This document shows, piece after piece, positions 1 through 50,827 of a stretch of DNA of 64,000 nucleotides. The DNA comes from Macrostomum hystrix (Eukaryota > Animalia > Platyhelminthes), in the NCBI GenBank assembly GCA_950097015.1, contig CATNEN010000001.1, positions 17,794,001 to 17,858,000 of the forward strand, given 5' to 3'. A program made the position numbers and the translations under genes. Position 1 is the stretch's first letter. Each line of letters opens with the position of its first letter. The notes under the pieces are model-generated. The model had not been told where the DNA came from, did no database searches, and saw only the letters and a program-made list of their open reading frames with translations.

Positions 1-285
1 TGGGGATAGTTTTTTGCTGTATACTGTATTGCCGAATTAGCTCTTCTTCTGCTTCTTTTCTTGCCCCCGATGGGAGTGGACCTGAGAGTTCCTTAGCTAG
101 GTCCGACCTCAGGCCACTGCCCAGGGGCTCTCCTGGTCTTGTGTTTACCTCATTCTCTACTCTTGTCCAACCTTTCCTCTCGTCTCTCCTATCTTGACTT
201 CTCTTCCTTTTCATTTTCCCTTCCTGTAGATATTCTCACCGTCTTTTTTATACGTGAATAAATGTGTACTGTACAATGTTTTAAT
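1..285. repeat. Direct repeat of 10157-10441 (3' flank of the LOTUS-like ORF)
   Basis: tggggatagttttttgctgtatactg...gtacaatgttttaat reads identically at 1 and at 10157. Confidence 0.95.
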
Positions 286-321
286 TTCTTGTAACATGTT
301 TTACGGCTTTGCGCTTTGCTG

Positions 322-534
322 CCCGGTGGGACAACCGCGCCCAACCCGCGCCCTCCAACCAGCGCCCCGCTGTACGCCCCACTATACGCCCACCCACCGG
401 TCACTGGTGGGAGGGCGTATAGTTTGGCCAGGCGGCGCACTGGTGGCCCACCAGTGTGGGGCGCGGGTTGGGGTGGGGGGTCGACGGGAGGTAAATAAAA
501 TTCGGGGCATATCCTCAAAGTCTACTGTTAGTAG
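322..534 (+). repeat. Left terminal inverted repeat with GC-rich hairpins
   Basis: Hairpin actatacgcccacccacc...ggtgggagggcgtatagt and G-run cluster at 457-480; inverse of 9460-9647. Confidence 0.85.
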
Positions 535-544
535 AAATGTTAGT

Positions 545-975
545 TTGAAATCATGAAGCCAACTCAGTCGTGTAGGAAATCATTTCTAGATTGATTTTCA
601 ATTGAATCCGACTCGATAAACTGTGCTCAAATCTATTGGGACACCGACGACAGCCATATAGTACTGACATGACTTTCCAGGTTAATAAGTTCGAGTGGAA
701 ATCATTTGAAATCATGAAACCAACTCAGTCGTGTAGGAAATCATTTCTAGATAGATTTTCAATTGAATCCGACTCGATAAACTGTGCTCAAATCTATTGG
801 GACACCGACGACAGCCATATAGTACTGACATAGTCAGAGTCAAGATAATATTTTCTAGGTGACTTTCCAGGTTAATAAGTTCGAGTGGAAATCATTTGAA
901 ATCATGAAACCAACTCAGTCGTGTAGGAAATCATTTCTAGATAGATTTTCAATTGAATCCGACCCGATAAAGTTT
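545..975. repeat. ~190-bp tandem repeat (about 2.3 copies)
   Basis: gactttccaggttaataagttcgagtggaaatc recurs at 671 and 861; same unit at 56958-57543. Confidence 0.9.
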
Positions 976-1011
976 GGCATGCTTATAGTCACTCTTTAAC
1001 TGAGCATATAT

Positions 1012-1113
1012 ACCGATAAGCTTCTAAGTCTAAGCTTCCGATATGGGCGGCACCGGCCGCCTCCTCGCTGCGTCCGTCATGGAGGCTCCCTGCCGCTAAG
1101 TCAAGTAAGTCAA
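1012..1113 (+). mobile_element. Short retroposed insertion (5'-truncated LINE/RTE-like tail) with 10-bp TSD
   Basis: gagcatatat flanks it at 1002-1011 and 1114-1123; it ends in aagtc-type repeats; the equivalent site in copy B (~57758) is empty. Confidence 0.6.
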
Positions 1114-1287
1114 GAGCATATATTGATTTAATTATTTATTTATTTAATGATTTGTATTAGTAAATTAAAAAATTTAAGCAATGAAATGAACCAAGTCTTG
1201 ATACAACACTGATACAACACAACAACAATGATACAACATTGATACGATACAACGATACAATGATACAACAATATATAAACATTTAAA

Positions 1288-2242
1288 GCTCAGTTTAATG
1301 ACAATTATCCCAGATCCTCAGTTTGGTGACAACCCCAGATCCTCAGTTTCGTGACAATCCCAGATCCTCAGTTTAATGACAATTATCCCAGATCCTCAGT
1401 TTGGTGACAATCCCAGATCCTCAGTTTGGTGACAACCCCAGATTCTCAGTTTCGTGACAACCCCAGATCCTCAGTTTCGTGACAATCCTAGATCCTCAGT
1501 TTAATGACAATTATCCCAGATCCTCAGTTTGGTGACAATCCCAGATCCTCAGTTTAATGAAATGAACTAAGCCTTGATACAACACAACAACAATGATACA
1601 ACATTGATACGATACAATGATATATAATTGTATCGACAACAATATATAAAAATTTAAAGCTCAGTTTAATGACAATTATCCCAGATCCTCAGTTTGGTGA
1701 CAATCCCAGAACCTCAGTTTGGTGACAATCCCAGATCCTCAGTTTAATGACAATTATCCCAGATGCTCAGTTTGGTGACAATCCCAGATCCTCAGTTTGG
1801 TGACAACCCCAGATTCTCAGTTTCGTGACAACCCCAGATCCTCAGTTTCGTGACAATCCCAGATCCTCAGTTTAATGACAATTATCCCAGATCCTCAGTT
1901 TGGTGACAACCCCAGATCCTCAGTTTCGTGACAATCCCAGATCCTCAGTTTAGTGACAATCCCAGATCCTCATTTTAATGACAATTATCCCAGATCCTCA
2001 GTTTGGTGACAATCCCAGATCCTCAGTTTGGTGACAACCCCAGATTCTCAGTTTCGTGACAACCCCAGATCCTCAGTTTCGTGACAATCCTAGATCCTCA
2101 GTTTAATGACAATTATCCCAGATCCTCAGTTTGGTGATAATCCCAGATCCTCAGTTTGGTGACAATCCCAGATTCTCAGTTTCGTGACAATCCCAGATCC
2201 TCAGTTTCGTGACAATCCCAGATCCTCAGTTTGGGGACAATC
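1288..2242. repeat. 22/25-bp minisatellite (gatcctcagtttggtgacaatccca)
   Basis: Dozens of tandem units, interrupted by a gatacaaca-rich block. Confidence 0.95.
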
Positions 2243-2333
2243 AGTCCATGACAACTAAATAAAAAAACGACGAAACTAATTCACTAAGTTGACTTATGCT
2301 GGAATGCCGGATGCTGTTGCCAGGGGCCGGTTA

Positions 2334-2699
2334 TCAAGGACGCCACACAGGCTGGGCTCCCTCCTGGTCCATCGACTGGCTAGATTCTTCGTCAGTAGAC
2401 AAAGCCGACACCATTGATGAGGCCGAAGACTTGCAGCAGAAGCTCATGGCCGTAGATTGAGTCTTGGCTGAGCCATTCAGCAGCAGCTCCACAGTCAGCT
2501 CCAGGATGTCGGCCTTCTCTAGGCGCTTAATCCGGTACGGTTTTATCACCTTGTTGGCCTGCAGCAGCTCTTTGAGTCTGTCCAAGCTGGCATTAATTCT
2601 GGCTCTGCGCTGCTGCTCCATCACCTGCTTGCTGATTCTCCTATGCTCCATCAACTCTACTGGGCGCGTGGTTCGTGTTTTTTTAATTCGGAGCTCCAT
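2334..2699 (-). CDS. hes: Hairy/Enhancer-of-split (HES) bHLH protein, intronless, no Orange domain; C-terminal WRPW truncated to WRP by TGG>TGA
   Basis: bHLH ME..RRARINASLDRLKELL...RLEKADILELTV; ends PVWRP*. The paralog at 61692 ends WRPW. TATAAAA lies ~35 bp upstream on the minus strand. Confidence 0.9.
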   Translation of the reverse strand: MELRIKKTRTTRPVELMEHRRISKQVMEQQRRARINASLDRLKELLQANKVIKPYRIKRLEKADILELTVELLLNGSAKTQSTAMSFCCKSSASSMVSALSTDEESSQSMDQEGAQPVWRP

Positions 2700-3794
2700 C
2701 GAAATTTCGAAATCGACCGGCCGAGTTTATAATTTTATAAGTACCCCCTGCACCGCCAACCCCCTGTTTCCTTTCCTCTATTCCCCGCTATAAGTCTCTT
2801 ATAGCAGCTCAAGTTCTGTGTTTATCTATATTAGCAAATTTTGAAATGTCAACTAGGGATAAAAAGAGGGCCTCAGTTTAATCAATATTCATAAAGGCAT
2901 TCAGAACAAGATAGTTTATTCACAGTTAGTCAATCATGTCTTTTTGGTTGGCACTCAACAGGCTGTTGTTGATTGTTGGTCATTCAGCTTCATCACCAGA
3001 CTAGGATTCTTGGGACTCCTTGTCCTGTTAGATAGGCTCTCCTTGTCCTGTTAGGTGTGAGAGGTGAGACAGTTGGTTTGCTGTTTGTATTTAGATCTAT
3101 AGCTAGGCAAGAAGGGGCAGAAGGCTGATAAGAGCTTATACAGGATTGTTAGCTATATTAGGTTAAATAGGACCACAATTGAGGTAATTATACAGGGCTG
3201 GTATGAACTGTGTATGGGGCTTGAGCATAAATGTACAAGATCTGATAGCTCAAGTGTACACTCTAGTACATCAGATAACTCAGTAAAGATAGCTAGCAAT
3301 ACCACAATTCTAGCTAGTGTTATAAAGACCTGGGGAAAATAGTGTTCATAAATAAATAGTCATTAGCTAGAGGAATTTCATAAACAGCAGTTTCAAGGCA
3401 AACTACTGCTCATGCAGTATCAAAACCAATAGCTCAAGGCAAACTGCTGTGCGTGCATTATCAAAACTGAGAGCTCAAGCAACCAGCAAAAAATTTGTCT
3501 GTTGGGTATCTTGGGCTGGGTTGGGCTAACACTAAAAATGATTATGTACTCAAGCACTTACCATAGCCTTTAATCATATGTGATTAGTTCTCATATGCCC
3601 TTAGCTATGCTATGAGAGTGAAGACAGCCAGATGCCACAATTCCAGCTAGTGAGCCAGTGTGATAAAGACCTGGTAAAATAAAGTTGATAAATAAATAGT
3701 CATTATTAGGAAATTTCATAGCAAAGTTATATAACTGTACCAGACCAAATAACTCTAGTGTACACTAGGATCACTTATATTGCTTATAGAAACA

Positions 3795-3940
3795 AGAAGA
3801 GAAGAGGAGAAAAAAGGACAGGAGAGAAGAGGAGAGGAAAGAAGAGAGGAAAGAAGAGCAGAGGAAAGGAGGGGAGAGGGGGAGAGGAGGGGGGAGAGGA
3901 GAGGAGAAGAGGAGGGGGGAGAGGAGAAGAGAAGAGGAGA
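3795..3940. repeat. Polypurine (GA-rich) low-complexity tract
   Basis: Almost pure G/A; related tracts at 24325-24550 and 24845-25080. Confidence 0.9.
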
Positions 3941-4943
3941 GAATTTCATAAACAGCAGTTTCAATGCAAACTAACTGCTCATGCAGTATCAAAACCAATA
4001 GCTCAAGGCAAACTACTGTGCATGCATTATCAAAACTAAGAGCTCAAGCAACCAGCAATTGTGTGTTGGTATCTTGGGCTGGGTTGGGCTAACACTAAAA
4101 ATGATTATGTACTCAAGCACTTACCATAGCCTTTGATCCTATGTGATTAGTTCTCATATGCCCTTAGCTATATCATGAGAGTGAAGACAACCAGATGCCA
4201 CAATTCCAGCTAGTGAGCCAGTGTGATAAAGACCTGGTAAAATAAAGTTGATAAATAAATAGTCATTATAAGGAAATTTCAGAGCAAAGTTATATAACTC
4301 TAGTGTACATTGGGATCAATTGTTATTGCTTTGCAGGAGCTAACCAACAATTTTGGGTTGGGTACCTAGCAAACACTTTATACAAGAAATGATTAGCCAA
4401 GCCTTACCAGTTCTCAGATGCCAGCCTGAAGATAGCAAGCAAAGCCACCATTCCAGCTTGTGTGATAAGGACCTGTTAAGATGTACTATCCCTCACTGCA
4501 GCTTGCTAAGTTTTTACCATCCTTTTAACAGCTTTCACTTTCTTGAATCCATAATTCCTTTCAGGCTCTTCAATTATTTGTAGCCACATTTCACTTTTCT
4601 TTTAAGCTTTTAGCTGAAATGGCTCTGACATCATCCATGAGCAATGAGCTGCAGCTCAGGAGCATTGAGCTAAAAGCTAGGTTTCTCTAGCTAGTGAAAC
4701 CAAGCTATACACTTTTACCATCCTTTTAACTACCTTAAATCCATTTGAACATTTTAAAGACCCTTTGATACACTTATTTTACTCTTATTCACTTCTACTT
4801 TTGCTTTACCTTTACTTTTACTTATTTACTTTTCAATTTTCAGAGAATTCGGATCGAGATTCTACTTCTTATAGAGATAGTTACTTCAATAATTACTTCT
4901 ATAGTTACTTCTACTCTCTTCTATATCTCTATAAGAGATAGTT

Positions 4944-5286
4944 ATGGATAATAATAAGCAGCAGCAGCAGTTCGGCTAAGAGTGCCGGGACTCGGTCACC
5001 GCTCCTCTCCAGGGGGCGGTGGTTGGGGCTCCACCTGGCGGCGGCCTCGTGGGTCCTTCTTCCTCTGGGAGGCTGGGCCTCGCGGGGTGGCTGCTGGCTG
5101 CTGCTCCCAGTCCGTACCCAACAACAACAGCAGCAGCTGCAGACGAGCAGCCCATGGAAGCTGCTGCCCACCACGGTGGCAGGCAGAAGCTCTGCAGTCC
5201 AGTGGTGGAAGGAGAAGGGAGGGGCCGGGGCGGCCACCAATTTCACGCCGCCTAGGCCCCGGTGCCCTCCCTCACAGAAGAAATAA
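4944..5286 (+). pseudogene. Small Q-rich orphan protein family, copy 1 (frameshifted 5' part)
   Basis: ATG at 4944 gives MDNNKQQQQ; the C-terminal SPWKLLPTTV...VQWWKEKGGAGAATNFTPPRPRCPPSQKK is in another frame. Homologous to 21394-21723 and 25768-25968. Confidence 0.6.
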
Positions 5287-7434
5287 ATAAGGTTTGTCTA
5301 AGCTACCTATATGTGATACCTTTATTCCTTAATTCTTAATCCTTAATCGTTAATTCTTTAAATAAGCGCTATCGTAGTAAAATTATACCCGTTTGCAGGT
5401 GTAAGTTTTCATTGACTGTGGTAAAACAATATTTACTTTTAGCCATTATAGCACAATTTATCAAAATGCGATTGTCACACTACAATGCTAATGCAATATT
5501 ACAACGTCGCAAAATGTACTCACATTCAATATGATTGTAGCCATAATGTCATATGTCGTGTCGTGTCGTGTTCATGTTTAACCAGAAAATTGCATGAGCC
5601 ATCCTGCAAGCCCTATAGCAAGTTTATCTGCAAATTTAAAGAAGCAGATAGCAACTGCGTACGAAGATAACCCCTCACTCCACCTTCATGCTGTCCAATA
5701 ACGAGCTGCTAACACACCTCGAAACCTCCCGCTTCGTCATTTCAGACGCATTTCAAATGAAAGGATCGACTCCTTTCATCCTTTCATAAAGGATTATATT
5801 AGGAATATTTTGGAATATATCTTTGCTTGTTGTCTTCCTTTATTTCACTCATATTTATTTATTAGCTTGATGCACAGCCTAAATGTTTAGCTTCTTAGCT
5901 TTAGCTTAGCATGATAACCAACATATTTATCGAGCACTCCTTGCTTCGTGTTCCTGCACTTGCTCACTTGCTTTGCTTGCCTGCTTTGCTACAATTCGTA
6001 GCAAAAGTACATTTTTTCATTTCTACTAACATTTATACTAAGCTGCTACTAACATTTACACTCCGACCCTTAAGCTGGCTAACACTTAAAAGATTCGCAT
6101 GCTTACCATCTGACCTCTGTGTCCCTGTAGCTAAGAGTTTGCTACAATTCGTAGCAAAAGTTCATTTTTCATTTCTACTAACATTTATACTAAGCTGCTA
6201 CTAACATTTACACTCCGACCCTTAAGCTAGCTCACTTAAAAGATTCGCATGCTTCCCATCTGATTACAGGCAATCGTTATAGACAAATGATAAATATGTA
6301 AATTGGGTCTGAAACATTCCATATTTTTTCCAGACGTTCTCCATGAACACCTGACGCCTGGTACACGGTCAGGCGTGTCAAGAAACGGAAGCTGCGGATG
6401 ACATTGATATTAGTGTATATTCTAATTCAGTCAGCTACTCAGCGTCGAGTAGCAGTTGGCCCAGCATCCCGGCGAGCTGTATCTGGCCGAGTTTAGCAGG
6501 TTAGATAACGACAGCGACCTTCACGTACTCCATGTCACGTCAATGGAGTTCCACGGCTGCGCTCGCAACAAGGTTGAATAATCTTTTTGTTTTGTTTGTT
6601 GTAGTTTATGAAATAGTGTGCAGCAACAATTAGTTTATTTATAGCATTTATAAGTAGCATTTATATAGCATTTATAAGTACTTGTAGTTATCTCATACTT
6701 TTATAGGAAACAGTCTGTCTTAATTACATGTCTTCAAAATCAAGGTTTAATTACAGATGATAAGTCATGCATGGGCAATATGAGAAAACACGAGAAAACA
6801 GAACAAAAGATATCCGTAAGAAAAAAATAGTTTTCATGAGTGAAGTTACGCAACTGAGAATCGGACAATCCGTACTTTAATTCTGAGTCATTGTCTGGAT
6901 CATGTGATTTCTAGGGTATTGTTGGGTAATGTGCATCCCCGCTTCACTCGTGAAATGAATTCTGTTCTAGAATTCCTATCTGTGGTTTTAGATGTCATGT
7001 TCAGACTAGATTCCCCCAAATGTGCCTTGTCTAAAAACAAACCTCATAAGCAAACAAGGTAGATTATTTTCTTCGAGAACCCCTCAACAATTAGCTAGTT
7101 CTCAAAAAAACTCCTCGCAACGAGCGTGTGAATTAAAAAATGACTGTCAACACAGGTGTATTTATTCTAGCACAGGTAGTGTTACACTTAAAATAAAAAA
7201 GCAAGAAAAACAAAACCCAATTCATTTTTAATACTGCAGTACACCGCTAGCTGGACATTTCAGATCTCATACTTGTTTACATGAGTGAAGTAGCGCAACT
7301 GACAATCAGACAATCCGTGATGTAATTCTGAGTCATCGTCTATTTGTCTGGATCGTGTGATTTCTAGGGCAACGTAGGGATTTCTGAGGTAATTAAATTA
7401 TGGGATTTCTGATTTGGGTGTCATTTTGTCTAAG

Positions 7435-8160
7435 TCATTTTTCTAAAAAAAGTTTTACTTTCTCGTGGTCGAAGTGAAATTTGTAAAAGTGCTTGTCTCT
7501 TGGGTGGGTCTTGGTGATAAGCTTGTCCTCGTAGTAATGCCTCAGCGCTCGCTTCATCGTTTCAAAGCTCATGTCCCGCCGCTTGTGACTGCTCCAGGCC
7601 TCTGCTAGGCCGGTTGGGTTTACAATTTGGAAAATGCCCTCCAGCTTGTTCTCCCAGCGCAAGCATGGTGGCGACAGGTCAGCGACAGACGGAGTTTCGA
7701 GTAAGTGGTACAGAAACTCCCACAGCCAACAATTCCTGTCTGAGATTGGGCAATGTTAAGTTTTAATAGCTAATTGTTGGTAAATACTATAGATTCCCAA
7801 ATCCCAAATTTTGCAGCTCAAAAACACTAACCGATACCAGCACGCTTCTTCCTTGTTCTTTTTATGACGCCTGGTGGCTGCACATGCGTTGGGAGATGCG
7901 AAGGAACCAACCAAAGGAAGCTATCAATCGGAGGCAGCTGCTGCTGATGCTGTTGCTGTCCGATGGACCTGATGGTATGCTGCTCATTTTTGCCTGCAAA
8001 GCACTCCGATGCGCTCATGGCCCCCGTGGCATCTTCGTCGGCAACCGGCTTATAGAGATCGAAGAGGGCAGCGCTGTCGTAAGATTGGAGGTCACCGAAT
8101 TCACGGCGCATCACGGTGAAGTCCAAGGCGTCTAGACCGCTCAGGTCATCGACGGGCTGG
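7435..8160 (-). CDS. ETS-domain transcription factor, copy 1 (exons ~8160-7832 and 7739-7435; start uncertain)
   Basis: GTTAGT donor and ctcag acceptor join in frame to DRNCWLWEFLYHLLE...CLRWENKLEGIFQI...LAEAWSSHKRRDMSFETMKRALRHYY...FYKF, the canonical ETS signature. Confidence 0.85.
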
Positions 8161-9029
8161 TAAGAATTAAATGAGTTTGCGATTAGCTTGTCTCCCGTGA
8201 ACAATCAATCTAGACAGCGTGTCCCATAGCTAGACAATCTAGCCAGTCTCCGCAATAAAGTGTTGCTATAGTAACTGTCTCCCATAGAACTACCAGTCTC
8301 TGTCTTGAATCATAGATTTACCTTTAGGGATTCAGTTGTATTTCGGCTATCAAACTTCATGGTCCCAGTGTCTGGCACAGCCTCAAAGAGGAAGCAGTTA
8401 ATATTACTCTTGGCCGCTTCCGCTTTGTTGCTTATAGTTGTTGGAAAAATATTGTGGGTGCATGTATCCGCTTTAGACAGCTAGCCAAGTTACAATGTAA
8501 GCTATCTATATGCTACCCTAAAGAAACGCTTTGTTTGCCACCTCACCTAAAGCCACCTCACCCATCTCACTCAACCTCACTCTATCTCACCCAATCTCAC
8601 TTAATCTCACTCAATCTAACCCAATCTCACCCTTTCTCTCCCATAACAATCCAATGTCCCTCAATCTCACTAAATCTCATGCAGTCTAACCCAATATCAC
8701 CCAATTCTCCCTATTCATCCCCTTAACAATTAATCAATTATTCAAACGAAGAATAAAATGAATCGAATTAAACTATGTCCAACCCAGCAACCAATTAGAA
8801 GGAGGACCATAGAGCACTCACTTTAAATCGAATTCTCATTGGTTGCCGCTCAATTTATGCCGCTCGATTTATGCCGCCCATTTAAATATGCAATTCGTAT
8901 CGCATATTCCCCTAATGGATAAAGCTTACAGGATACAGGATACAACCCAATCTCAATGGATACAGCTTGGGATGTGTCCAGTAAATGCTTTTTAGCAGCT
9001 GTATAATTTTCAGCTTTTTTACAGCTACA

Positions 9030-9420
9030 AAGATCCCCCAGTTGACAATGATCTCTCAGTTGACAATGATCCCCCAGTTGACAATGACCCCCCAGTTGAC
9101 AATGACCCCTCAGTTGACAATGATCCCCCAGTTGACAATAATCCCCCAGTTGACCAGGATCCTCCATTTGATGATGACTACCCATTGATGATGATCCCCA
9201 GTTGACAATGATCCCCTATTCGATGATCCCCCAGTTGATGATGATCCCCCACTTGACAATGATCCCCCAGTTGACAATGATCCCCAAGTTGACCATGATC
9301 CCCCAGTTGATGATGATCCCCCAGTTGACCATGATCCCCAAGTTGACCATGATCCCCAGTTGACAATAATCCCCCAGTTGACAATGATCCCCCAGTTGAC
9401 AATTATCCCCCAGTTGAAAA
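9030..9420. repeat. 18-bp minisatellite (gatcccccagttgacaat)
   Basis: About 20 tandem units directly inside the right TIR; shares its core with the 22-bp array. Confidence 0.95.
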
Positions 9421-9438
9421 TGGTCGATTAATTACTGC

Positions 9439-9647
9439 GCTCAAAAAATACAACACAGCCTACTAACAGTAGATTTTGAGGATGTGCCCCGAATTTTATT
9501 TACCCCCCACCCACCCCAAATCGCGCCCCACACTGGTGGGCCACCAGCGCCCCGCTGTACGCCCCACTATACGCCCACCCACCGGTGCCCGGTGGGAAGG
9601 CGCATAGTGGGGCGTACAGAGGGGCGTATAGTAAATGTCCCACCGGG
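9439..9647 (-). repeat. Right terminal inverted repeat with long hairpin
   Basis: Inverse of 322-534 and 56723-56954; contains a ~38-bp-stem hairpin cgccccgctgtacgccccactatacgcccacccaccgg / ccggtgggaaggcgcatagtggggcgtacagaggggcg. Confidence 0.85.
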
Positions 9648-9681
9648 TGTCTGCATACTCCTTTAATGTAGCCGTCCTATA

Positions 9682-10038
9682 ATGGATATTCGCGACGTCG
9701 TCCAGCGAGCCATCTCGCAGATTATCGACTCTGTTGGCGGCGTCGTCGAACTGCTCCGATTCTGTACGGCTCTCCGAGCTGTCGGTATCTCACGGGGCGA
9801 GGTGCTGGTAGCCGGCTACCCGTCCTTCATCGCTGCCATCCAGTCGACGCCTGGCATCAGCGTCGTACGCATGGAAGACGACCGCGTCTTTGTGCTCCGA
9901 GGCCCGACAACACGTGAGCGAGTGCGTGAGTTATTGGCTGCGCCAATAAACATTGCGGACTTTTGGCTGCGCACATGGGCTGAGCGGGTCGATCGGGAAG
10001 GTGGTGGTGGTGCTAGGCCGGACCAAGGTCGGAATTAA
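9682..10038 (+). CDS. Stand-alone LOTUS/OST-HTH-like protein (118 aa)
   Basis: VQRAISQIIDSVGGVVELLRF...LVAGYPSFIAAIQSTPGISVV follows the OST-HTH pattern (helix, GxVxLxxL, GYxSFxxxLxSxP, beta strand). Clean ATG-TAA intronless ORF. Confidence 0.6.
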   Translation: MDIRDVVQRAISQIIDSVGGVVELLRFCTALRAVGISRGEVLVAGYPSFIAAIQSTPGISVVRMEDDRVFVLRGPTTRERVRELLAAPINIADFWLRTWAERVDREGGGGARPDQGRN

Positions 10039-10756
10039 TTCGACAAATGGCAACCTAGAATTGGGGATAAATTAGGAACAGGGGTTTCAGGGAGATTAAC
10101 TGACTTGGAGATGGATGGGAGCAAAATGGGGATACATTTTTAACATGGGATTGAATTGGGGATAGTTTTTTGCTGTATACTGTATTGCCGAATTAGCTCT
10201 TCTTCTGCTTCTTTTCTTGCCCCCGATGGGAGTGGACCTGAGAGTTCCTTAGCTAGGTCCGACCTCAGGCCACTGCCCAGGGGCTCTCCTGGTCTTGTGT
10301 TTACCTCATTCTCTACTCTTGTCCAACCTTTCCTCTCGTCTCTCCTATCTTGACTTCTCTTCCTTTTCATTTTCCCTTCCTGTAGATATTCTCACCGTCT
10401 TTTTTATACGTGAATAAATGTGTACTGTACAATGTTTTAATGTAATTTAATGTACTTTCATGTAATGAAATATTATTAAATGTAACTTAATGTAATATAA
10501 TTCATTATGTACTTTCTTAAATTGTAACCGCGTATATTTTTTAATGTGAATGTGAAACTAAATAAATAAAATTAATAGTAGTAAATGAAATACATTACAG
10601 TTAAAGAAAACTTAAATATTTGGTAGTGAGTTAGCAGATGTCGCAGCGCCTTTTACTTCGTTTCTTTCCTCAAATAACTAAAATATCAGAGGTTATAGCC
10701 GCGTGCATGACTAAAAGCGTTGCACTATGCGCAACACAGTGCTTAGTGAATTCTCT

Positions 10757-11609
10757 ATGTATGCAAGAATTAAGTGCTATGGCAGCTTGGGTCTGAGTCA
10801 GTTGAGATATTGGCCAATTGAGACGCGCGACATGCTACTCTTAAGCCATAGAGGACACAGGGGCAGGGGCTTCGATTGGTTAATCGACCATAAGCAGCTA
10901 TTCCGCCAGCACCAGGGTGCAGTTGCGGAGAGCGGGCCGTCTGCTGCCGATCTGGCCGGCCATTCGCACCTAGTCCTGCCGCTGAGTGAAGAGTGACCTA
11001 GTGACCACACTCCGGTGACCTAGCCAGGATGGTGCTGCCCGATAAATTTTGTGAGGCCTTGCTGCGAATGAACGATGAGTAGTACATCGTGCCGTCGCTC
11101 GCTGCTCGCAGCATTCACAGCTGCCAACCGACGAGCACGGTGTTCCTGGATGTTTTTGGCGGCATCTATAGCCAGTCGGCGATGAGCCGCATGATTAGTG
11201 CAGGCGGTCAGCGAGTCCTCAGCCGGCACTACGTGGCCACGCACTGGCGTCGCACCCTCTGCGCCGTTGTGCTAATGATGGAGCCGGAGCACCTGGATGT
11301 GTTCGCCAGAGCGCATGGCACATCTGCAGCTGTCATTCGGTACAATTATGGGCACAATGCGCAGATGGCCACCGAGATGGGCGCGGTTATTCATAGCCGC
11401 GATTTGTCCGCCGGTTTGCGGTGCCATTAGGTGACGAAGAGATGCGACCAATAGTTAGGCCGCCGACCCAGGGACTCATCAGCAGCCTGGCTGGTGGAAG
11501 TGGTGAGGTGGCGGCGAGCACCCAACGAGCCAACGCAGTTCTGCACGGTAGACCGGTGGCCCGAAAGCGACGGCGGCTGCACTCAGTGGCGGAACATAAT
11601 TTTGAGTGA
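10757..11609 (+). pseudogene. Degraded tyrosine-recombinase-like gene 1
   Basis: Across frames: IDHK, FVRP, VFLDVFGGIYS, ATHWRR (HxxR-like box), ARAHGTSAAVIRYNY (A..xG[HT]S..V...Y box) and a C-terminal RKRRR. Contains stops and frameshifts. Confidence 0.55.
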
Positions 11610-12203
11610 TTCGCACTGCCTGCCTGCCTGCCTGCGTAAATATTTATAAAAAAGGGCCGCCGTGATAATTGGGTTATACATGTTTGTATAATATCAATAT
11701 ACATGATATAGAGAAAACAAAAGCACCACTCATGGTTAGCGGGAGACGGAGACGTTAGAACTCAGACGTTGGTGTTGTATTGATTCGGCCCAGTCACACT
11801 GAGTACTGCGGCACGCATGAAGCTTTTAAATAGTGAGTCAAAAACACCGTGGGGCAGATAAAGGGGGGTTTGTGTGACGCCTGAATGAGAAATGACGCAT
11901 GAGATATATGCGTAAAAACAAAGATCCATGCTTGTTCGAAAACTGAATAAAGAAAGGTGTATATTTAAGCACGGCAAAAACAAAGACAGAATTAAAGTTC
12001 TAACCGCAAAAAGAAAAAGAAAATCTAAAAAACCACAGCCAATTGTCTTGGTACATATCTTTTTAATTATAAAATACTAACAACTATTTTTTAATCTTAA
12101 AATCAAAATATTAACACACTAAAAGTGTGGGTAAAGATGTGAAAAAGCTGTATATACATGTATGTGTACATGTGTGTATATGGTCTACATATACATATAT
12201 CAG

Positions 12204-14319
12204 CGTGGCGTGGTCAGCGCCTACTTGGATAGCCTGACTTACTCCATGCTAAAACAGACAGTTTCCGCCCTTGAGAAGGTCGGAAAATTTTTGATAATGG
12301 CACGCTACCAGCGCATCTTCGATGGTGGGCTGCAGCAGCAGCTCACCTCGTACAGGCAGGCCACGAAAAATTGGACGGCGAGCTCAATGGGGCCGAAGGC
12401 GGAATACTACGCCGGGCTGGTGGACCGCCGAGAGGAGGAGCTGCTCACCGGCGAGCAAATCAAAGCGGTGTTTGACATGAAGGCCACTTTTCTTGAAGAA
12501 TCGCGGTCTACAAATTACAGGTGAGTTTTTTAGGTTTATTCTTGTTAAGGCTTTTAATAACAATCTGACAATAATTTTGTCAGTGATTCAAAATGGCACT
12601 AGCATTCAAAATCAGCTAAGAAAAAATACTATCTTGAATTCCTATCCTCACAGGACAGTGACATACCTTGCCGTTGGGATGGTGATCTGCTTCGGCGATG
12701 GCAACGCCAACCGGCAAGGTGTGGCCTCGACCTGTCTCATCTCCGACACCAGGCGCTGGCTTAAATCCCCCAACGAGCCTTTGAAGGTTAAGACACAAGT
12801 CAAACGGAAAGCACGGATCGGCTTGGGCCAGCGTCACGCCGTGCGCTGATCTGCTGATGCAGCTCCTGGCCCAGCGATTCGCAGAAGGCCCAAAGGACGA
12901 AGACCTGGCGCTCGTCATCCCCTACGGCTCGTTTGACCACCTTTTAATCAGTACCGAGAGCGATACTCGCCATTACTAAAAAATGTGAGTGTCAAAATTT
13001 CAGACGTGGCTGGAAACTATGGGCCTCGAAAATTCATCTGCGGAGGAGCAGCGGCTGATGGCCGACCACCAAAACCATACGAAAGTGTGCAGCGCCAGTT
13101 TAATCAGGTAAGATTTGCTACATTCTATACAAAAACCTTGCCAATTTTTTAGCTAATAAGCCCTCCTTTTTAGGATTAACTTTATCAAGATTAATAATAT
13201 TTATTAGTTGTACTGCCCGAATCAAAACAGGCCCGAACAAAGGAGAGGCGCAGAAAGGGCCGCGAGCTGACGAAGAAGCTGGTCTCCGGTGTGGCCTCGG
13301 TGAACCTGGAGACCTTAAACACCAAGGCTCCACTCCATGGTCATCAACTGCAGAGGGCGGCAAACGCACTAGCAGGCGGCATCGATGGCGGCAGTGAGTG
13401 CAGCATGATTGGTTAACTTTTGCGGGATATAAAAATTCAAATTATAGTGTAAAACTAAAAGGCGAAAACTATCCTTTAAAAAACTGCATAAAAATTATCA
13501 AAATCATGAACACTGTCCTCTAAAATGATCGAGTAAAAATGTCTGTGAGAGAGTCGATTCTAAATATTCATCCTACGTAGATCCCACTTAAAAATATTTT
13601 TCTTTCTATAGACTACGACTTGGACGGAATGCTCCAAACTATTGATAATCCGCCATATGAGGAGAGCGGCTCTGCTGGCACATCAAAAGCTACAGCAGAT
13701 GCCGCGCACAAGGAGCCTCCGCCATGCAGATGGGAGAAGAAAACGGCGCAAACAAAAAGTCAGAAGCGACCGGCTGCTGCCACTGGCGTCACCACTACTT
13801 CCGCTGGCGCCGACCTGCCTGCCGCTAGCGCCGACCTGCCTGCCGCTGGCGCCAACCTGCCTGCCACCGCTACTCCAATGCTTGAATTTTCATTTATCTC
13901 GGACAATCTTAACGGATTATTGGATGAAATGTACGAGAACATTTACGGCGCTGACGATGCTGGAGCTACTGATGCCTCTTCTTCCGCAGTCCTACCTGGC
14001 GCCAACCTTGCCTGCCGCTGGTGCCAAACTGCCTGCCGCTGGTGCTAAACTGCCTGCCGCTGGTGCCAACCTGCCTGCCGTTGGCGCTGTAGTCGACTCT
14101 GCTAAGCTGCCGGGTAACCGCGTGGCTCGAAAGCGACCTCCACAGTTCAGTGCCAGCACCAGCGCCGCTTGTTCAGCGAGCAACCGGCCAGAAGTTGAGC
14201 CAGGCTGTCTAGTTCTCGGTTACTGGCCAACGGACGGAGAAAATTGGAGGCCGGCAATGGTTTGCCTACCCAGGCGCGGCTCAAGCTGCACGAAAGGCTT
14301 TTGCTCTCAACAAATTTGA
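12204..14319 (+). pseudogene. Spliced tyrosine-recombinase-like gene 2 with low-complexity linker and C-terminal Tudor-like motif (frameshifted)
   Basis: Exon 12204-12520, intron 12521-12653, exon 12654-13107 with NANRQGVA, HKSNGKHGSA, NFRR and LMADHQNHT in shifting frames. Later exons at ~13209-13395 and from 13612, ending PGCLVLGYWPTDGENWRPAMV. Confidence 0.55.
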
Positions 14320-14804: not shown

Positions 14805-15850
14805 CATGTAGTTAATATGCTAGTGCCATAGACGGTTGGGTCTGGAATGCGGCCTTGAGTAGCGGATTTCCGACTTTCGGCACTTGTACATAGGGGAATC
14901 AAAGTCTAAGCTGGGGTCCACCGGACAGAATAATCAGATTGTTGGGGTCTGCTTGCCAAATTATCCGATGCATATTTTGTACATCAAATAGTTACGATAA
15001 TCACTAGCTTAATAAAATAACTGCATAATGAATCATAGTGATTGTATTATTTTACATTATGACGTTATGACGCCTCTGCCTCTTCAGCTGCGGCATACAG
15101 AAGCTCGTCGTCAACTGCATGGGTCTATGCAATTTCTATATATAGTATTACGCATTCAATCGAATGTATATCCAAAGTGTCAAAGTATTGATGAATAATA
15201 TTCATGAAGGTATTCATGAAGGTTCATGAAAATATAACGCCTTCTAAATGGAAAGTAAATATACAGTATTTTCGCGAAAAGACTGATATGTTCTTAAACG
15301 AAGGAAAGGGCAGTATTTTTGCAAAAGTTCTTGAAGTAACGTGGCCACATCTTATGGTATTTTCGCGAAAGTGCATGCGTATTCTTAGACGAAGTGTCTA
15401 TTACCTTTTTTACCATAGACACATTTATAGTATTTCTGCAAATTGCCAAGAATCATGAATATATTTTTTTCGCGAAAAGACTATACACTGTGTACTATAT
15501 TGAATACTTATGAGTGAAAAATAATGGCAGTTTTTGCCAGAATACTAACGATACGATGACGAATATATTTTTGCGAAAAAAACGTGTTCTAAAACAAATA
15601 CAAAATGCTGTATTTGTGCGAAAGTACTTTGAGTACTAAAATATATTGAACGTTTGCAAAAAAAATACAAACAAGAATGCTTAACGTAGTGCTGATGATT
15701 GTTGGTAATGGTATTTTCACGAAAAGATTAGTGTATTTTCAATCACTTACAAAGCAACACCAATATGTATATCAAATAGTTATGATAATCACAGGCTTTA
15801 TAAAATAACTGTTATGAATCATAGTGAATGTATTATTTTATAATATCATT

Positions 15851-16519
15851 TCAAACTTTTGCCTCCTCAACTGCCATCGCTGCTGCTGCTGACGCCTCCG
15901 CCTCTTCAGCTGCGGCATACAATAGGCACTCGTCAGCTGGGTCGAATGAACAGCTACTGGCTGCCATCGCTGCTGCTGACACCTCTGCCTCTTCAGCTGC
16001 GGCATACAATAGGCAGTCGTCAGCTGGGTCAAATAAGCAGCTACTGGCTGCCATCGCTGCTGCTGACGCCTCCGCCTCTTCAGCTGCGGCATACAATAGG
16101 CAGTCGTCAGCTGGGTCAAATAAGCAGCTACTGGCTGCCATCGCTGCTGCTGACGCCTCTGCCTCTTCAGCTGCGGCATACAATAGGCAGTCGTCAGCTG
16201 GGTCAAATAAACAGCTACTGGCTGCCATCGCTGCTGCTGCTGCTGACGCCTCCACCTGTTCAGCTGCGGCATACAAAAGCTCGTCGTCAGATGGGTCTAA
16301 GCAATTGACTGCCATCGCCGCTTCGACCTCTTCAGCTACGGCGTATAACATATGGTCATCTGCCAAGCCCAATACAAAACTACATGATGAATGGTATGTT
16401 TCATCATACCCGAAGTCATCATAGCCTGGCTCTTCGTTCAGCCCAACGTCCTCGTCGTGACAGTTGGATGTTTCCGCGTCGTTTAGAGTTGGCGCTGATG
16501 ATGATGGTGATGCAGGCAT
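15851..16519 (-). CDS. Acidic protein with 27-aa (81-bp) repeats DPADDCLLYAAAEEAEASAAAMAASSCLF
   Basis: ATG-initiated 222-aa ORF with 5-6 repeat units; one more unit at ~15070-15115. Confidence 0.45.
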   Translation of the reverse strand: MPASPSSSAPTLNDAETSNCHDEDVGLNEEPGYDDFGYDETYHSSCSFVLGLADDHMLYAVAEEVEAAMAVNCLDPSDDELLYAAAEQVEASAAAAAMAASSCLFDPADDCLLYAAAEEAEASAAAMAASSCLFDPADDCLLYAAAEEAEASAAAMAASSCLFDPADDCLLYAAAEEAEVSAAAMAASSCSFDPADECLLYAAAEEAEASAAAAMAVEEAKV

Positions 16520-21723: not shown

Positions 21724-23366
21724 AAGGTTTGTTAAACCACGTACTTTTTGCTATTTTATACTAATGGTTTTTCGCAATTCTTGACAGTTTTTTTATAATT
21801 CTTAAAATATGATTTTAAACGTCCTAAAAAATTATACCCGGTTTTGCAGGTTTTACTTTCCCTAAAAAGTTCATATTGGTGCTAGGTGGTAAAACTAAAT
21901 ATCTTTCTAGCCATTAGCTACACGTCGTTTAACATGCTGCAATTCACACAACACACAATATTACAATAAAGCAATAAAATGCACTCACCTTTAATATGAC
22001 AGTAATTAAATGCTATAACGTTAGTCTTTTTGTCGTACGTGCCGCACTTCGTGTTTAACCATGCAGCTCATTCCATAAGCCAACCCTAAGCATTTGCTTA
22101 GAGTTGGATGCATGCCCTTGTTGCCATTGGATAAAGCATTTATTAAAGGTGCATGTTTTTACTAAATAATGATATTTGCGTTGCATGCCAAATATTAATT
22201 ACGTATTTAAATTATCACATTTGTGCCTTAAAACTCCTTTTCGCCTTTCAGAGCATGCATATACGGCTTAGTCAGCACGGCTTAGTCAGCGATATAGCGC
22301 CAATTAATAATTAAGCTGCATTTTTGGATATCTATGCCTTCGTGTCTTTATTTATTTCACACTTGTTTATTTATTACATGCACTGCATGCATTAAGTATT
22401 TATAAATTGCTTTAGCTTTGCACGACAACAAACGTATTTATTGAGCTATTGCACCTTGCTTTGTGTTTAAGATGCACTTAAGATGCATGCATGCAATTAG
22501 CTTCTTAGAATGACTTGATATAATAGCTGGCTATCGCATCTGTCCCTTAAAGGCTTGCTGAAATGTAGCTGAAATTCAGAGTTGACCAGGGATCAAATTT
22601 CAACCGAAAGCAAAAACTGTATACTGTCAAATTCCAATTTTAGTTTTCCCCGTTCCAGAAAATCCTGAGACGTGTGTTGCAAGGTGGTCGGCAGAAAATG
22701 TACCGACGAGACATCGCTCTTAGCTTTTACCTCGGATGTACAGGTATGCAGTTACTTTCTTCTTAAGCAGTTTGAGTTTAAATTCACATTAGGAATTCAA
22801 AATGAGATAAATGAATTGATCTAACCCTCTGCAGCATGGGGAATTTCAGTCAGCGTCGAGCACAAGTTTGCCCAGCGTCCCGGCTAGCTGCATCTGGCCG
22901 AGTTTAGCAGGTTAGAGAAAGACAGCGACATTCACGAACTCCTTGTCATGTCAATAGAGTTCCACGGCTGCACTCGCAACAACGTTAAGTGTGCTTTTTG
23001 TTTTTTAGTTTATGAAATAATGTGCAGCAACTATTAGTTTATTTATAGTATAGCATTTATAAGTACTCGTAGATATCATACTTTTATAGGAAACAGTCGG
23101 TCTCAATTACATGTCTTCAAAATCAAGGCTTAATTACAGATGATAAGTCATGCATGGACAATATGAGAAAACACAAGAAAACAGAACAAAACATGGCCGT
23201 AAGAAACAATAGTTTACATGAGTGAAGTAGCGCAACTGACAATCAGACAATCCGTGATGTAATTCTGAGTCATTGTCTGGATCATGTGATTTCTAGGGCA
23301 ATGTAGGGATTTCTGAGGTATTAATTAAATTATGGGATTTCTGATTTGGGTGTCATTTTGTCTCAG

Positions 23367-24090
23367 TCATTTTTCTAAAAAAAGTTTTAACTTCTCGTGG
23401 TCGAAGTGAAATTTGTAAAAGTGCTTGTCTCTTGGGTGGGTCTTGGTGATAAGCTTGTCCTCATAGTAATGCCTCAGCGCTCGCTTCATCGTTTCAAAGC
23501 TCATGTCCCGCCGCTTGTAACTGCCCCACGCCTCTGCTAGGCCGGTTGGGTTTAGAATTTGGAAAATGCCCTCCAGCTTGTTCTCCCAGCGCAAGCAGGG
23601 TGGCGACAGGTCAGCGACAGGCGGAGTTTCGAGTAACTGGTACAGAAACTCCCACAGCCAAAAATTCCTGTCTGAGGTTGGGCAATGCTAAGTTTTGATA
23701 GCTAATTGTTGTTAAATACTAAAGATTCTCAAATCCCAAATTTTCGCAGCTCAAAAACACTAACCGATGCAAGCACGCTTCTTCCTTGTTCTTTTTATGA
23801 CGCCTGGCGGCTGCACATGCGTTAGGAGATGCGAAGTGGGCGGATCAAGCGAATGAACCCAGCAAAGGGAGCAATCAATCGCCGAAGCATTCAGTCGCTG
23901 CTGCGGATGCTGTTGCTGTCCGATGGACCAGATGGACTCCGATGCGCTCATGGCCCCAGTGTCATCTTCGTTGGCAACCGGCTTGTACAAATCGAAGAGG
24001 GCAGCGCTTTCGTAAGACTGGAGGTCACTGAATTCGCAGCGCATCATGGCGAAGTCCAAATTGTCTAGACTGCCCAGGTCATCGACGGGC
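23367..24090 (-). CDS. ETS-domain transcription factor, copy 2 (exons ~24090-23765 and 23671-23367; start uncertain)
   Basis: Same splice sites as copy 1; DRNFWLWEFLYQLLE...LAEAWGSYKRRDMSFETMKRALRHYY. Confidence 0.85.
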
Positions 24091-24322
24091 TGGTAAGAAT
24101 AAATGGGTTTGCGATTAGCTTGTCTCCCGTGAACAATCAATCTAGACACCGTGTCCCATAGCTAGACAATCTAGCCACTCTCCGCAATCAAGTGTTGCTA
24201 TAGTAACTGTCTTTCTAGCTATAAGCTAGCTACCTAGAAAATCTACGAGATTTTGATATACTCCTAGTAGATACCCACTGTCTCCCATAGAACTACCAGT
24301 CACTGTCTCGAATCATAGATTT

Positions 24323-25500
24323 ACCAAGAAGAAAAAAGGAGGGGAGAAGAGGAGAGGAGAGGAGAGCAGAGAAGAGCAGAGGAAAGGAGGGGAGAGGAAA
24401 GGAGAGGAGAGGAGGGAGGAGGAGAGGAGAGAAGAGAGTAGAGAAAAGCAGAGAATAGGAGAAGAGAGAAAAGGAGAGGAGAGGAAAGGAAAGAGGAGGT
24501 AGGAGGGGAGGAGAAGATGACAGGAAAGAGAGAAGAGGACAGGAGAGAATGAGTATCTTGAGCTTAGTTGGGCCAACACTGAGAAATGATTATGTACTCA
24601 AGCACTTACCATAGCCTTTAATCATATGTGATTCGTTCTCATATGCCCTTAGCTATGCCATGAGAGTGAAGACAGCCAGATGCCACAATTCCAGATAGTG
24701 AGCCAGTGTGATAAAGACCTGGTAAAATAGAGTTGATAAATAAATAGTCATTTTTATAAGGAAATTTCAGAGCAAAGTTATATACCTATACCAGACCAAA
24801 TAACTCTAGTGTACACTAGGATCACTTATATTGCTTGTAGGACCAAGAAGAAAAAAGGAGGGGAGAGAAGAGGAGAGCAGAGAAGAGCAGAGGAAAGGAG
24901 GGGAGAGGAAAGGAGAGGAGAGGAGGGAGGAGGAGAGGAGAGAAGAGAGTAGAGAAAAGCAGAGAATAGGAGAAGAGAGAAAAGGAGAGGAGAGGAAAGG
25001 AAAGAGGAGGTAGGAGGGGAGGAGAAGATGACAGGAAAGAGAGAAGAGGTATGAGGGGAGGAGAAGAGGACAGGAGAGAATGAGTATCTTGAGCTTAGTT
25101 GGGCTAACACTGAGAAATGATTATGTACTCAAGCACTTACCATAGCCTTTAATCATATGTGATTAGTTCTCATATGCCCTTAGCTATGCCATGAGAGTGA
25201 AGACAGCCAGATGCCACAATTCTAGATAGTTAGCCAGTGTGATAAAGACCTGGTAAAATAGAGTTGATAAATAAATAGTCATTTTTATAAGGAAATTTCA
25301 GAGCAAAGTTATATACCTATACCAGACCAAATAACTCTAGTGTACACTAGGATCACTTATATTGCTTGTAGGACCAAGAAGAAAAAAGGAGGGGAGAGAA
25401 ATGATTATGTACTCAAGCACTTACCATAGCCTTTAATCATATGTGATTAGTTCTCATATGCCCTTAGCTATGCCATGAGAGTGAAGACAGCCAGATGCCA
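24323..25500. repeat. ~520-530-bp tandem duplication containing GA tracts
   Basis: accaagaagaaaaaaggaggg at 24323, 24842 and 25373; homologous to 3530-4290. Confidence 0.85.
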
Positions 25501-25767
25501 CAATCCATTTGAACATTTCAAACACCCTTTGATACACTTATTTTACTCTTATTGACTTCTACTTTTGCTTTACCTTTACTTTTACTTATTTACTTTTCAA
25601 TTTTCAGAGATTTTTCAGAATTCTGAAATTCTGATATTACTCATTCTAGTGTAATAAAAAACAGCTATTCTGCAAGGAGTCATTAAACCATCTTGATAAC
25701 TAGGCACTGAACATACAGGGCACTGAAATTTAGTAAAATTTACTGAACTTTGAATTATTTCAGAATT

Positions 25768-25968
25768 ATGGATACAGAACAGCAGCAGCAGCCACAGCAG
25801 CAGCAGCAGAACCTAGTTTCTAACAGCCCTTGGAAGCTGCTGCCTACCTCAGTGGAAACCTCCAATTCCAAGGTCCAGTGGTGGAAAATAAAGGGAGGGG
25901 CCGGGGCGGCCACCAATTTCTCGCCACCGAAGGTGCCCCGGTGCCCTCCCTCATCGGCAAAGAAATAG
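25768..25968 (+). CDS. Small Q-rich orphan protein family, copy 3 (intact, 66 aa)
   Basis: MDTEQQQQPQQQQQNLVSNSPWKLLPTSVETSNSKVQWWKIKGGAGAATNFSPPKVPRCPPSSAKK; a ttttcag acceptor lies just upstream. Confidence 0.6.
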   Translation: MDTEQQQQPQQQQQNLVSNSPWKLLPTSVETSNSKVQWWKIKGGAGAATNFSPPKVPRCPPSSAKK

Positions 25969-27087: not shown

Positions 27088-27308
27088 CCTCAGTTTGGTG
27101 ACAATCCCAGATCCTCAGTTTAATGACAATCCCAGATCCTCAGTTTGGTGACAATCCCAGATCCTCAGTTTAATGACAATTATCCCAGATCCTCAGTTTG
27201 GTGACAATCCCAGATCCTCAGTTTGGTGACAATCCCAGATTCTCAGTTTCGTGACAATCCCAGATCCTCAGTTCGTGACAATCCCAGATCCTCAGTTTGG
27301 TGACAATC
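27088..27308. repeat. 22-bp minisatellite (same family as 1288-2242)
   Basis: Tandem gatcctcagtttggtgacaatccca. Confidence 0.95.
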
Positions 27309-27386
27309 AGTCCATGACAACTGAATAACAAAACAACGAAACTAATTCATTAAGTTGACTTGGAATGCCGCATGCTGTTGCTAGGG

Positions 27387-43719: not shown

Positions 43720-43776
43720 ACTGGCTTCCCTAGAGACATTTTTCGAATAAGTAATAGAAATGAGTGAGAAAAATGG

Positions 43777-44802: not shown

Positions 44803-44875
44803 TATTACTCAATACGAATGATATACCTGGCTCAGAACGAGGTGATATATGCCTCTTTCTCCGCCCAGGAGGTCT

Positions 44876-50825: not shown

Positions 50826-50827
50826 AT

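What the first reader, a model, noticed from the sequence alone, without database searches (positions are those of the whole stretch)
9682..10038. Stand-alone LOTUS/OST-HTH-like gene in a mobile-element island
Seen: an intact intronless 118-aa ORF matching the OST-HTH pattern by eye, with an extra C-terminal helix (RERVRELLAA). Known: extended LOTUS domains of Oskar, TDRD5 and TDRD7 bind and stimulate Vasa in germ granules and the piRNA pathway. Inference: a single-domain LOTUS protein next to recombinase genes could be a selfish-element decoy or anti-silencing factor targeting germline defence.
Basis: partly seen in the sequence, partly recalled or inferred. Interest (0 to 1): 0.8.

Follow-up and report, generated by a model that had tools for sequence, protein, structure and literature searches.

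The report
Tandem LOTUS-like mini-gene beside a transposon
A short open reading frame lies in a duplicated 830-base unit, likely just outside rather than inside the neighbouring transposon; it likely encodes a worn copy of a LOTUS domain (the germline module that binds the Vasa helicase) that would at most bind and damp Vasa, so the proposed transposon weapon against germline defence is unsupported.

Summary
The 118-aa ORF at 9682-10038 is real and GC-rich like coding DNA. LOTUS identity is likely but unproven. Pfam, PDB sequence search and a search of 1.84 billion proteins found nothing. In favour: the three best named ESM Atlas clusters are all OST-HTH (0.83-0.84, lead level), the predicted helix/strand order fits, the Ghxph motif is in place, and the low-confidence model resembles winged helices without singling out LOTUS. 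The ORF sits in an ~828-bp tandem unit. A 9.3-kb inverted-repeat transposon (322-9647, TG duplicated, carrying HES and ETS genes) has inserted into that array 34 bp before the ATG, and public contigs show the matching empty site. So the ORF is not its cargo. The downstream 'recombinases' were not confirmed. The basic tail that eLOTUS domains need to activate Vasa is missing, one public contig type skips the extension helix, and splice-like sites make 'intronless' uncertain. Best reading: a likely host-derived, fast-turning LOTUS-only duplicate family that would at most damp Vasa. The transposon-decoy reading gets about 7%.

The parts
9682..10038 (+). 118-aa ORF, LOTUS/OST-HTH-like (P0001)
   Evidence: ESM leads; models
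9814..9828 (+). Ghxph motif G45-F49, between predicted helix 2 (20-33) and helix 3 (47-54)
   Evidence: motif defined in PMC2848206; position
9913..9939 (+). predicted extension helix (residues 78-86), candidate eLOTUS alpha5; overlaps donor-like sites at 9914 and 9926; 9905-9941 is skipped in one contig type
   Evidence: table 5
9940..10035 (+). tail, residues 87-118: net neutral (5 basic, 5 acidic), no K/R in 87-96
9648..10441 (+). last copy of the tandem unit (794 bp plus a 34-bp spacer, about 828 bp) that holds the ORF
   Evidence: window 1-285 is identical to 10157-10441; joint 10441->9648 in runs X2 and X3
1..319 (+). 3' end of the previous tandem copy (1-285) and the 34-bp spacer (286-319); the inferred upstream ORF copy lies before the window
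322..9647 (.). 9,326-bp inverted-repeat element (12-bp terminal repeats, ~200-bp subterminal repeats, TG on both flanks), inferred insertion into the tandem array; carries HES and ETS genes; the ORF is outside it
   Evidence: empty-site arithmetic
10356..10418 (+). acceptor-like pyrimidine tract ending at 10385, short open stretch and AATAAA at 10413: a possible second exon and 3' end
   Evidence: by eye, no RNA data
11083..11430 (+). broken frame resembling a tyrosine-recombinase C-terminal half by eye (recalled pattern); relatives in public contigs; identity not confirmed
12207..13416 (+). broken, exon-like frames with a recalled recombinase-like look; identity not confirmed

Best explanation
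The ORF is likely a detached, strongly diverged copy of a host LOTUS-domain exon that has been amplified into a small tandem and dispersed family; a transposon likely landed beside it rather than carrying it, and if expressed the protein would likely bind Vasa without activating it. Shown: the ORF, the duplicated unit, the element's ends with TG on both flanks, the missing basic tail, and variant copies in public contigs. Inferred: LOTUS ancestry, origin from the N-terminal eLOTUS part of a TDRD5/7-type gene, the order of events (array first, insertion second), and any effect on Vasa. With no Tudor domain or long disordered region to hold it in germ granules, its likely effect is weak competitive damping of Vasa, and copies may be close to neutral and turning over.
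For: LOTUS-like: the top 3 of 30 named-cluster Atlas hits for residues 1-90 all carry PF12872 (0.84, 0.84, 0.83). Predicted order is helix-helix-helix-strand-strand-helix, as described for OST-HTH plus the eLOTUS extension. Ghxph lies in the helix2-helix3 insert; a stricter pattern written after seeing the query is in 114 of 120 fetched bacterial OST-HTH proteins and 169 of 20000 shuffles. hhalign independently pairs residues 45-55 with the conserved-Gly block of a bacterial profile (E 0.045, probability 1.2). Model residues 16-75 align to Oskar LOTUS at Z 3.0-3.1, rmsd 3.5-3.7, 55 residues. Tandem array and insertion: 285 of 285 identical bases; the X2/X3 contig joining 10441 to 9648 leaves 96-62 = 34 unlaid letters, equal to window 286-319; the terminal 11-mer has 4 matches against 0.23 expected. 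Family turnover: X1 holds two versions (3 differences in 452 nt; 35 differences and 10 gaps in 325 nt); X2/X3 hold a version skipping 9905-9941 and a relative that diverges upstream of 9810. No activation tail. No Tudor or LOTUS hit in 132 downstream frames.
Against: No sequence method detects LOTUS: Pfam 0, PDB 0 relevant, 0 of 1.84 billion representatives at E<=0.001, 0 of 46 candidates. The bacterial OST-HTH profile gives 0.1 bits, matched by 93 of 3000 shuffles; that profile also misses the animal LOTUS chains in PDB, so it has little power. Atlas scores under 0.9 are leads only, and with no filter the top 3 hits were unnamed bacterial and phage clusters at 0.85. Models are poor (pLDDT 48 and 57) and other winged helices score as high or higher than Oskar (Z 3.8-3.9). 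No parent gene was seen because no genome is held. X2 and X3 give near-identical figures and, with X1, come from one study, so they count once.
Confidence: 0.45

Rival explanations
1. It is not a LOTUS gene: either another small winged-helix protein or a GC-rich repeat unit whose ORF is fortuitous.
For: All sequence searches were empty. Fold matches are tied among many winged helices. Loose Ghxph occurs in 14327 of 20000 shuffles, 2579 of them at residues 40-52. An ORF this long arises in 50 of 2000 shuffles. A third of shuffled proteins reach an Atlas score of 0.8 (tool note).
Against: Secondary-structure order and motif position agree. Codon-position GC looks coding. None of 9 window proteins is in the 15-billion collection, so the genome is simply not represented there and empty close-homolog searches say little.
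Confidence: 0.28
2. The ORF is a coding exon, read through into an intron, of an ordinary spliced host LOTUS gene (TDRD5/7-like or LOTUS plus disordered region), and the window shows a partial duplicate of it.
For: Acceptor-like site at 9671, donor-like GTGAG at 9914 and 9926, acceptor-like site at 10385. Apparent introns elsewhere in the window start with GTGAGT, GTAAGA or GTTAGT. The relative in X2/X3 has, just before the conserved block, an in-frame TAA and an acceptor-like ending (my reading of a 30-letter loose end, assuming it abuts 9810).
Against: An 828-bp tandem period leaves no room for a full gene. No Tudor, NYN or LOTUS match in 132 frames downstream to 31535. AATAAA at 10413 suggests a short transcript; local spliced models give only 87 or 91 aa.
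Confidence: 0.15
3. One reading: a mobile element (for example a tyrosine-recombinase element starting downstream) encodes the LOTUS-only protein as a decoy that sequesters Vasa and weakens piRNA silencing.
For: The setting is transposon-dense. The tail is missing, and tail-less Tejas eLOTUS binds Vasa but does not stimulate it and fails to rescue fertility, which is what a decoy needs. Elements here do carry gene-like cargo (HES, ETS). There is precedent for transposons attacking piRNA machinery at the RNA level (TART-A/nxf2, abstract).
Against: The ORF is outside the only element with mapped ends. The recombinase identity is unconfirmed. Summed contig depth in X1 is 185-381 over the ORF against 786-1542 over 10904-11647 (the tool warns that depth is not copy number), which does not suggest co-amplification. 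One contig type skips the helix needed for Vasa binding.
Confidence: 0.07

Closest known systems
[quoted passage not shown]
   Same: Predicted three helices, a two-strand wing and a further C-terminal helix, at the very start of the ORF; Ghxph motif.
   Different: No significant sequence or structure match. No Tudor or SGNH partner domain. No basic tail. Sits in a short tandem unit. Binding untested.
C. elegans MIP-1/2 (EGGD-1/2), LOTUS plus disordered-region proteins (PMC8616582)
   Same: Described as LOTUS-domain and disordered-region proteins that recruit Vasa-family GLH-1; shows that LOTUS scaffolds of other architectures exist.
   Different: Those have several LOTUS domains and long disordered regions that anchor them. 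This ORF has one domain and a 30-residue tail.
Short OST-HTH-only proteins in databases (Atlas clusters of 72-91 aa; bacterial 77-151-aa proteins)
   Same: Size and single-domain layout, so stand-alone LOTUS entries are not unheard of.
   Different: Those entries carry PF12872 annotations (most rows) and some may be fragments. This ORF scores nothing against PF12872.
TART-A capture of nxf2 (PMC7785250, abstract only)
   Same: A piece of piRNA-pathway sequence next to transposons that might act against host silencing.
   Different: TART-A carries the fragment inside the element and acts through piRNAs. Here the fragment lies outside the mapped element and no parent gene or small RNA was seen.

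Membership tests
OST-HTH/LOTUS (PF12872) | profile score above the curated cut-off (23.8 bits) | tested here: not met
   0 families for the whole protein and for 6 of 6 pieces at E<=10; hence filed as LOTUS-like, not as a PF12872 member
OST-HTH/LOTUS (PF12872) | winged helix-turn-helix fold: three helices and a two-strand wing | tested here: inconclusive
   element order fits, but pLDDT is 48 and 57; Oskar Z 3.0-3.1 is tied with other winged helices at up to 3.9; no Foldseek hit at E<=0.001
OST-HTH/LOTUS (PF12872) | Ghxph motif in the insert between helix 2 and helix 3 | tested here: met
   G45-F49; weak on its own: 2579 of 20000 shuffles have it at residues 40-52
OST-HTH/LOTUS (PF12872) | language-model feature similarity to family clusters | tested here: inconclusive
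   top 3 named clusters are PF12872 at 0.83-0.84, below the 0.9 level
eLOTUS subclass | C-terminal extension helix (alpha5) | tested here: inconclusive
   H78-86 predicted in both models at low confidence; it may be intron read-through and is skipped in one contig type
eLOTUS subclass | small residue in alpha2 and Leu/Ile in alpha5 at the Vasa interface (Oskar A162, L228) | not testable with these tools
   no animal LOTUS sequence could be fetched to fix the register; by eye and from recall, A10 and V81 are candidates
eLOTUS subclass | conserved K/R and basic unstructured tail after alpha5 (needed for stimulation) | tested here: not met
   no K/R at 87-96; residues 87-100 have 1 basic and 1 acidic, residues 87-118 have 5 and 5
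eLOTUS subclass | binds the Vasa C-terminal RecA domain | not testable with these tools
TDRD5/TDRD7 gene | Tudor domain(s) downstream of the LOTUS domain | tested here: not met
   0 Tudor hits in 132 frames (131 of 150 plus-strand frames of >=36 aa in 10038-31535, plus one minus-strand frame); shorter exons were not tested
transposon-encoded accessory gene | lies between the element's termini | tested here: not met
   the adjacent element ends at 9647 and the ORF starts at 9682; empty site seen; the ends of any downstream element are unmapped
tyrosine recombinase (neighbouring frames) | detectable integrase catalytic domain | tested here: inconclusive
   no Pfam, PHROG or PDB hit; bacterial profile gives 2.9 bits (44 of 2000 shuffles as high) and -1.8 bits (1548 of 2000); divergent eukaryotic forms may escape this profile

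The most novel reading that the evidence does not exclude
A lineage-specific, amplified family of LOTUS-only proteins that bind Vasa but lack the activating tail acts as a natural dominant-negative brake on germ-granule and piRNA activity, spread by a selfish element or by selfish tandem amplification. It would be the first protein-level mimic of a piRNA-pathway scaffold.
Probability: 0.1. Interest if true: 0.8.

Novelty: new variant of a known kind. Interest (0 to 1): 0.35.

Why it matters
If the protein binds Vasa without stimulating it, it is a natural version of the tail-less eLOTUS mutants that fail in flies (10.64898/2026.03.28.715021). It would then offer a direct test of whether piRNA-pathway scaffolds get mimicked or antagonised in genetic conflict. 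If it is only a drifting duplicate, it is an ordinary case of gene-fragment turnover in a repeat-rich region. The side finding, a polymorphic DNA transposon that carries apparently intact HES and ETS transcription-factor genes in an animal, may deserve its own look.

Tried and rejected
Sequence searches with the ORF found nothing useful: Pfam, PHROGs, PDB, protein collection (9), 1.84-billion representatives (23), metagenome and genome contigs (32, 37), plasmids (61, six chance hits at E 3-8). The single viral locus L001 rests on a shared 8-residue word in an unrelated 202-aa phage protein, and PF12872 was not found in that record; rejected. A bacterial OST-HTH profile (16 sequences) did not score the ORF and did not find animal LOTUS chains in PDB. 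A bridge test adding the ORF to 10 bacterial rows brought in no animal LOTUS chain, the same as the control ORF. No LOTUS chain was among the 50 rows listed in either wide structural search; with such models this is no evidence either way. No RNA holder was listed. X4 covers only part of the ORF at low depth. A Helentron/HINE reading of the flanking repeat (PMC4067079 passages) was dropped once inverted ends at 322 and 9647 with TG on both flanks appeared. No complex prediction was run, because no Vasa sequence was obtainable and a bacterial helicase stand-in would say little. No whole genome is held. Four literature searches (listings only) showed no report of a transposon-encoded LOTUS protein. 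Three look-ups of earlier scan findings were empty.

Full report
1. The observation. The window holds an ATG-to-TAA frame of 118 codons at 9682-10038 on the plus strand. It is GC-rich (0.60) with a coding-like pattern by codon position (0.695, 0.492, 0.627), and 50 of 2000 dinucleotide shuffles of 9648-10099 give an ATG frame as long. The host is an animal by inference: the window has Hairy/E(spl)-type HLH genes (one ending in WRPW), ETS genes and a SET gene. No genome is held, and none of 9 window proteins is in the 15-billion protein collection, so the lack of close homologs says little.

2. Is it LOTUS? Sequence methods say nothing: 0 Pfam families for the protein and for 6 of 6 trimmed pieces, no relevant PDB sequence, 0 of 46 candidates, 0 of 1.84 billion representatives at E<=0.001. 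A profile from 16 bacterial OST-HTH domains gives 0.1 bits, equalled by 93 of 3000 shuffles. The same profile misses the animal LOTUS chains in PDB, so it is a weak test; PMC2848206 (part 2 of the main text read) states that bacterial and eukaryotic versions form distinct families.

(a) ESM Atlas, residues 1-90, named clusters: the best 3 of 30 all carry PF12872 (0.84, 0.84, 0.83; share of members 31%, 50%, 96%), followed by other winged-helix families. Unfiltered, the best three were unnamed clusters at 0.85 and OST-HTH came seventh. All are below the 0.9 lead threshold. (b) Both single-sequence AlphaFold2 models give helices 3-15, 20-33 and 47-54, strands 59-63 and 69-73, and helix 78-86 (pLDDT 48 and 57). 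(c) The defining Ghxph motif sits at 45-49 in the expected insert. It is common by chance (2579 of 20000 shuffles at 40-52); a stricter pattern that I wrote after seeing the query is in 114 of 120 fetched bacterial homologs, 9 of 16 profile rows and 169 of 20000 shuffles. hhalign pairs the same block (E 0.045). (d) Residues 16-75 of the trimmed model align to Oskar LOTUS at Z 3.0-3.1 and TDRD7 LOTUS at Z 2.1, but other winged helices reach 3.8-3.9, and Foldseek has no hit at E<=0.001. My estimate is about 70% for LOTUS ancestry. It fails the Pfam cut-off, so I call it LOTUS-like, not a member.

3. eLOTUS features. PMC5458760 (passages) shows that Vasa binding needs the C-terminal alpha5 helix. 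The preprint 10.64898/2026.03.28.715021 (abstract and sections 8 and 9; its supplements were not seen and hold the alignment that would fix the register) shows that a conserved K/R and a basic tail after that helix are needed for stimulation but not for binding. The ORF has a candidate helix at 78-86 but no K/R at 87-96 and a neutral tail (5 basic, 5 acidic). If it binds Vasa, it is therefore predicted not to activate it. This is inference; no Vasa sequence was available to model.

4. Context, which changes the reading. Window bases 1-285 are identical to 10157-10441. Contigs of runs X2 and X3 join 10441 back to 9648; 96 letters precede 9648, of which 62 are laid, leaving 34. The window has exactly 34 bases (286-319) between the duplicated stretch and a TG at 320-321; TG also stands at 9648-9649. 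Between the two TGs lies 322-9647, which begins and ends with the same 12 bases inverted, backed by about 200 bp of related subterminal sequence. The terminal 11-mer occurs 4 times against 0.23 expected, including at 56723, where a second copy begins. The X1 contig over the ORF also begins with 26 letters that do not match the element's end. The simplest reading: the ORF belongs to an ~828-bp tandem unit, and a 9.3-kb DNA transposon with a 2-bp target duplication inserted between two units, 34 bp before this ATG, and is absent from those contigs. X1-X3 are one study and X2/X3 look like near-duplicates, so this is one independent source. The ORF is thus a neighbour, not cargo. The superfamily is not settled; PMC12730594 (passages) gives 2-5-bp duplications for the CMCT clade but mostly CA..TG ends, whereas these ends are CC..GG.

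5. The family varies. X1 has two versions: 3 differences in 452 nt, and 35 differences with 10 gaps in 325 nt. X2/X3 have a version that skips 9905-9941 (codons 75-87, the whole candidate alpha5; whether the loss is 36 or 37 bases cannot be told) and a deeper-covered relative that matches only about 9810-9915. Reading its 30-letter loose end by hand, and assuming it abuts 9810, it keeps E40 but has an in-frame TAA at codon 36 and an acceptor-like ending before codon 40, so it is either intron-split or broken. In the window, donor-like sites at 9914 and 9926, an acceptor-like site at 10385 and AATAAA at 10413 allow a two-exon model of 87 or 91 aa. 'Intronless', and even the reality of alpha5, are therefore open. 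No Tudor, NYN or second LOTUS match was found in 132 downstream frames (131 of 150 plus-strand frames; 17 low-complexity and 2 others left out).

6. The recombinase claim. Broken frames at 11083-11430 and 12207-13416 look recombinase-like by eye (recalled patterns, no call). They have no Pfam, PHROG or PDB support, no homolog among 212 candidates, and score 2.9 bits (rank 3 of 442 window frames; 44 of 2000 shuffles as high) and -1.8 bits against a bacterial integrase profile. Contig depth over them in X1 is several times that over the ORF; depth is not copy number, but it does not suggest one co-amplified element.

7. Mechanism. Most likely (0.45): a host LOTUS exon, probably the N-terminal eLOTUS of a TDRD5/7-type gene, was duplicated away from its gene, amplified in tandem and is turning over; if expressed it would weakly compete for Vasa without activating or anchoring it. 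Rivals: not LOTUS at all (0.28); an exon of a spliced host gene (0.15); an element-encoded decoy (0.07).

8. Known context and novelty. LOTUS scaffolds with other architectures exist (C. elegans MIP/EGGD, PMC8616582 passages), short OST-HTH-only database entries exist, and an unchecked earlier scan note describes a Tudor-less TDRD5 duplicate in another genome. Transposons can attack piRNA machinery through captured sequence (PMC7785250, abstract only). Four searches of the held library (listings only) showed no transposon-encoded LOTUS protein. Verdict: a new variant of a known kind, with identity likely and function unshown; interest 0.35.

Noticed in passing
window 322-9647; second copy from 56723; rearranged pieces 22850-27515: Family of inverted-repeat DNA transposons (12-bp ends, TG on both flanks of the first copy, apparently polymorphic) carrying transcription-factor genes: HES at 2334-2699 (stop after WRP) and 61692-62060 (WRPW), a third HES 3' piece near 27350-27515, and two-exon ETS genes at about 7440-8111 and 23370-24047. 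It looks like a Pack-type element with developmental regulators as cargo in an animal.
   Followed up: partly
window 31535-33520 (-): Intact 661-aa ORF with no Pfam hit. By eye it has the C(2)C and H(3)H motifs described for CMC-type transposases; a possible autonomous partner of the element above.
   Followed up: no
window 28081-28647 (-): Intact single-frame SET-domain ORF, 188 aa (PF00856, E 5.6e-13), among repeats.
   Followed up: no
window 43006-51543: Young LTR retrotransposon with intact gag (49855-50769) and pol (45059-49579), a third ORF at 43777-44802, and 717-bp LTRs 99.86% identical. It is inserted in the right arm of a large inverted repeat (35848-38812 against 41817-43006 plus 51540-53154, about 96-99.9% identical) that encloses unexplained ORFs at 38750-39226 and 40882-41793.
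   Followed up: no
window 9027-9422 and 1307-2242, 27088-27308, 58073-61603: An 18-bp tandem repeat with extreme contig depth (about 10^6 in X1 against about 100 for unique-looking contigs) and a similar-looking 25-bp repeat lie inside the element copies; likely satellite families spread by it.
   Followed up: no
window 10140-10391 (-): An 83-codon charged, protein-like open frame on the opposite strand inside the tandem unit; no Pfam hit.
   Followed up: partly
window 54401-56146 (-), 34749-35912 (+), 15828-16424 (+): Long Ala/Gln-rich or repeat-built ORFs without family matches in the parts scanned.
   Followed up: no
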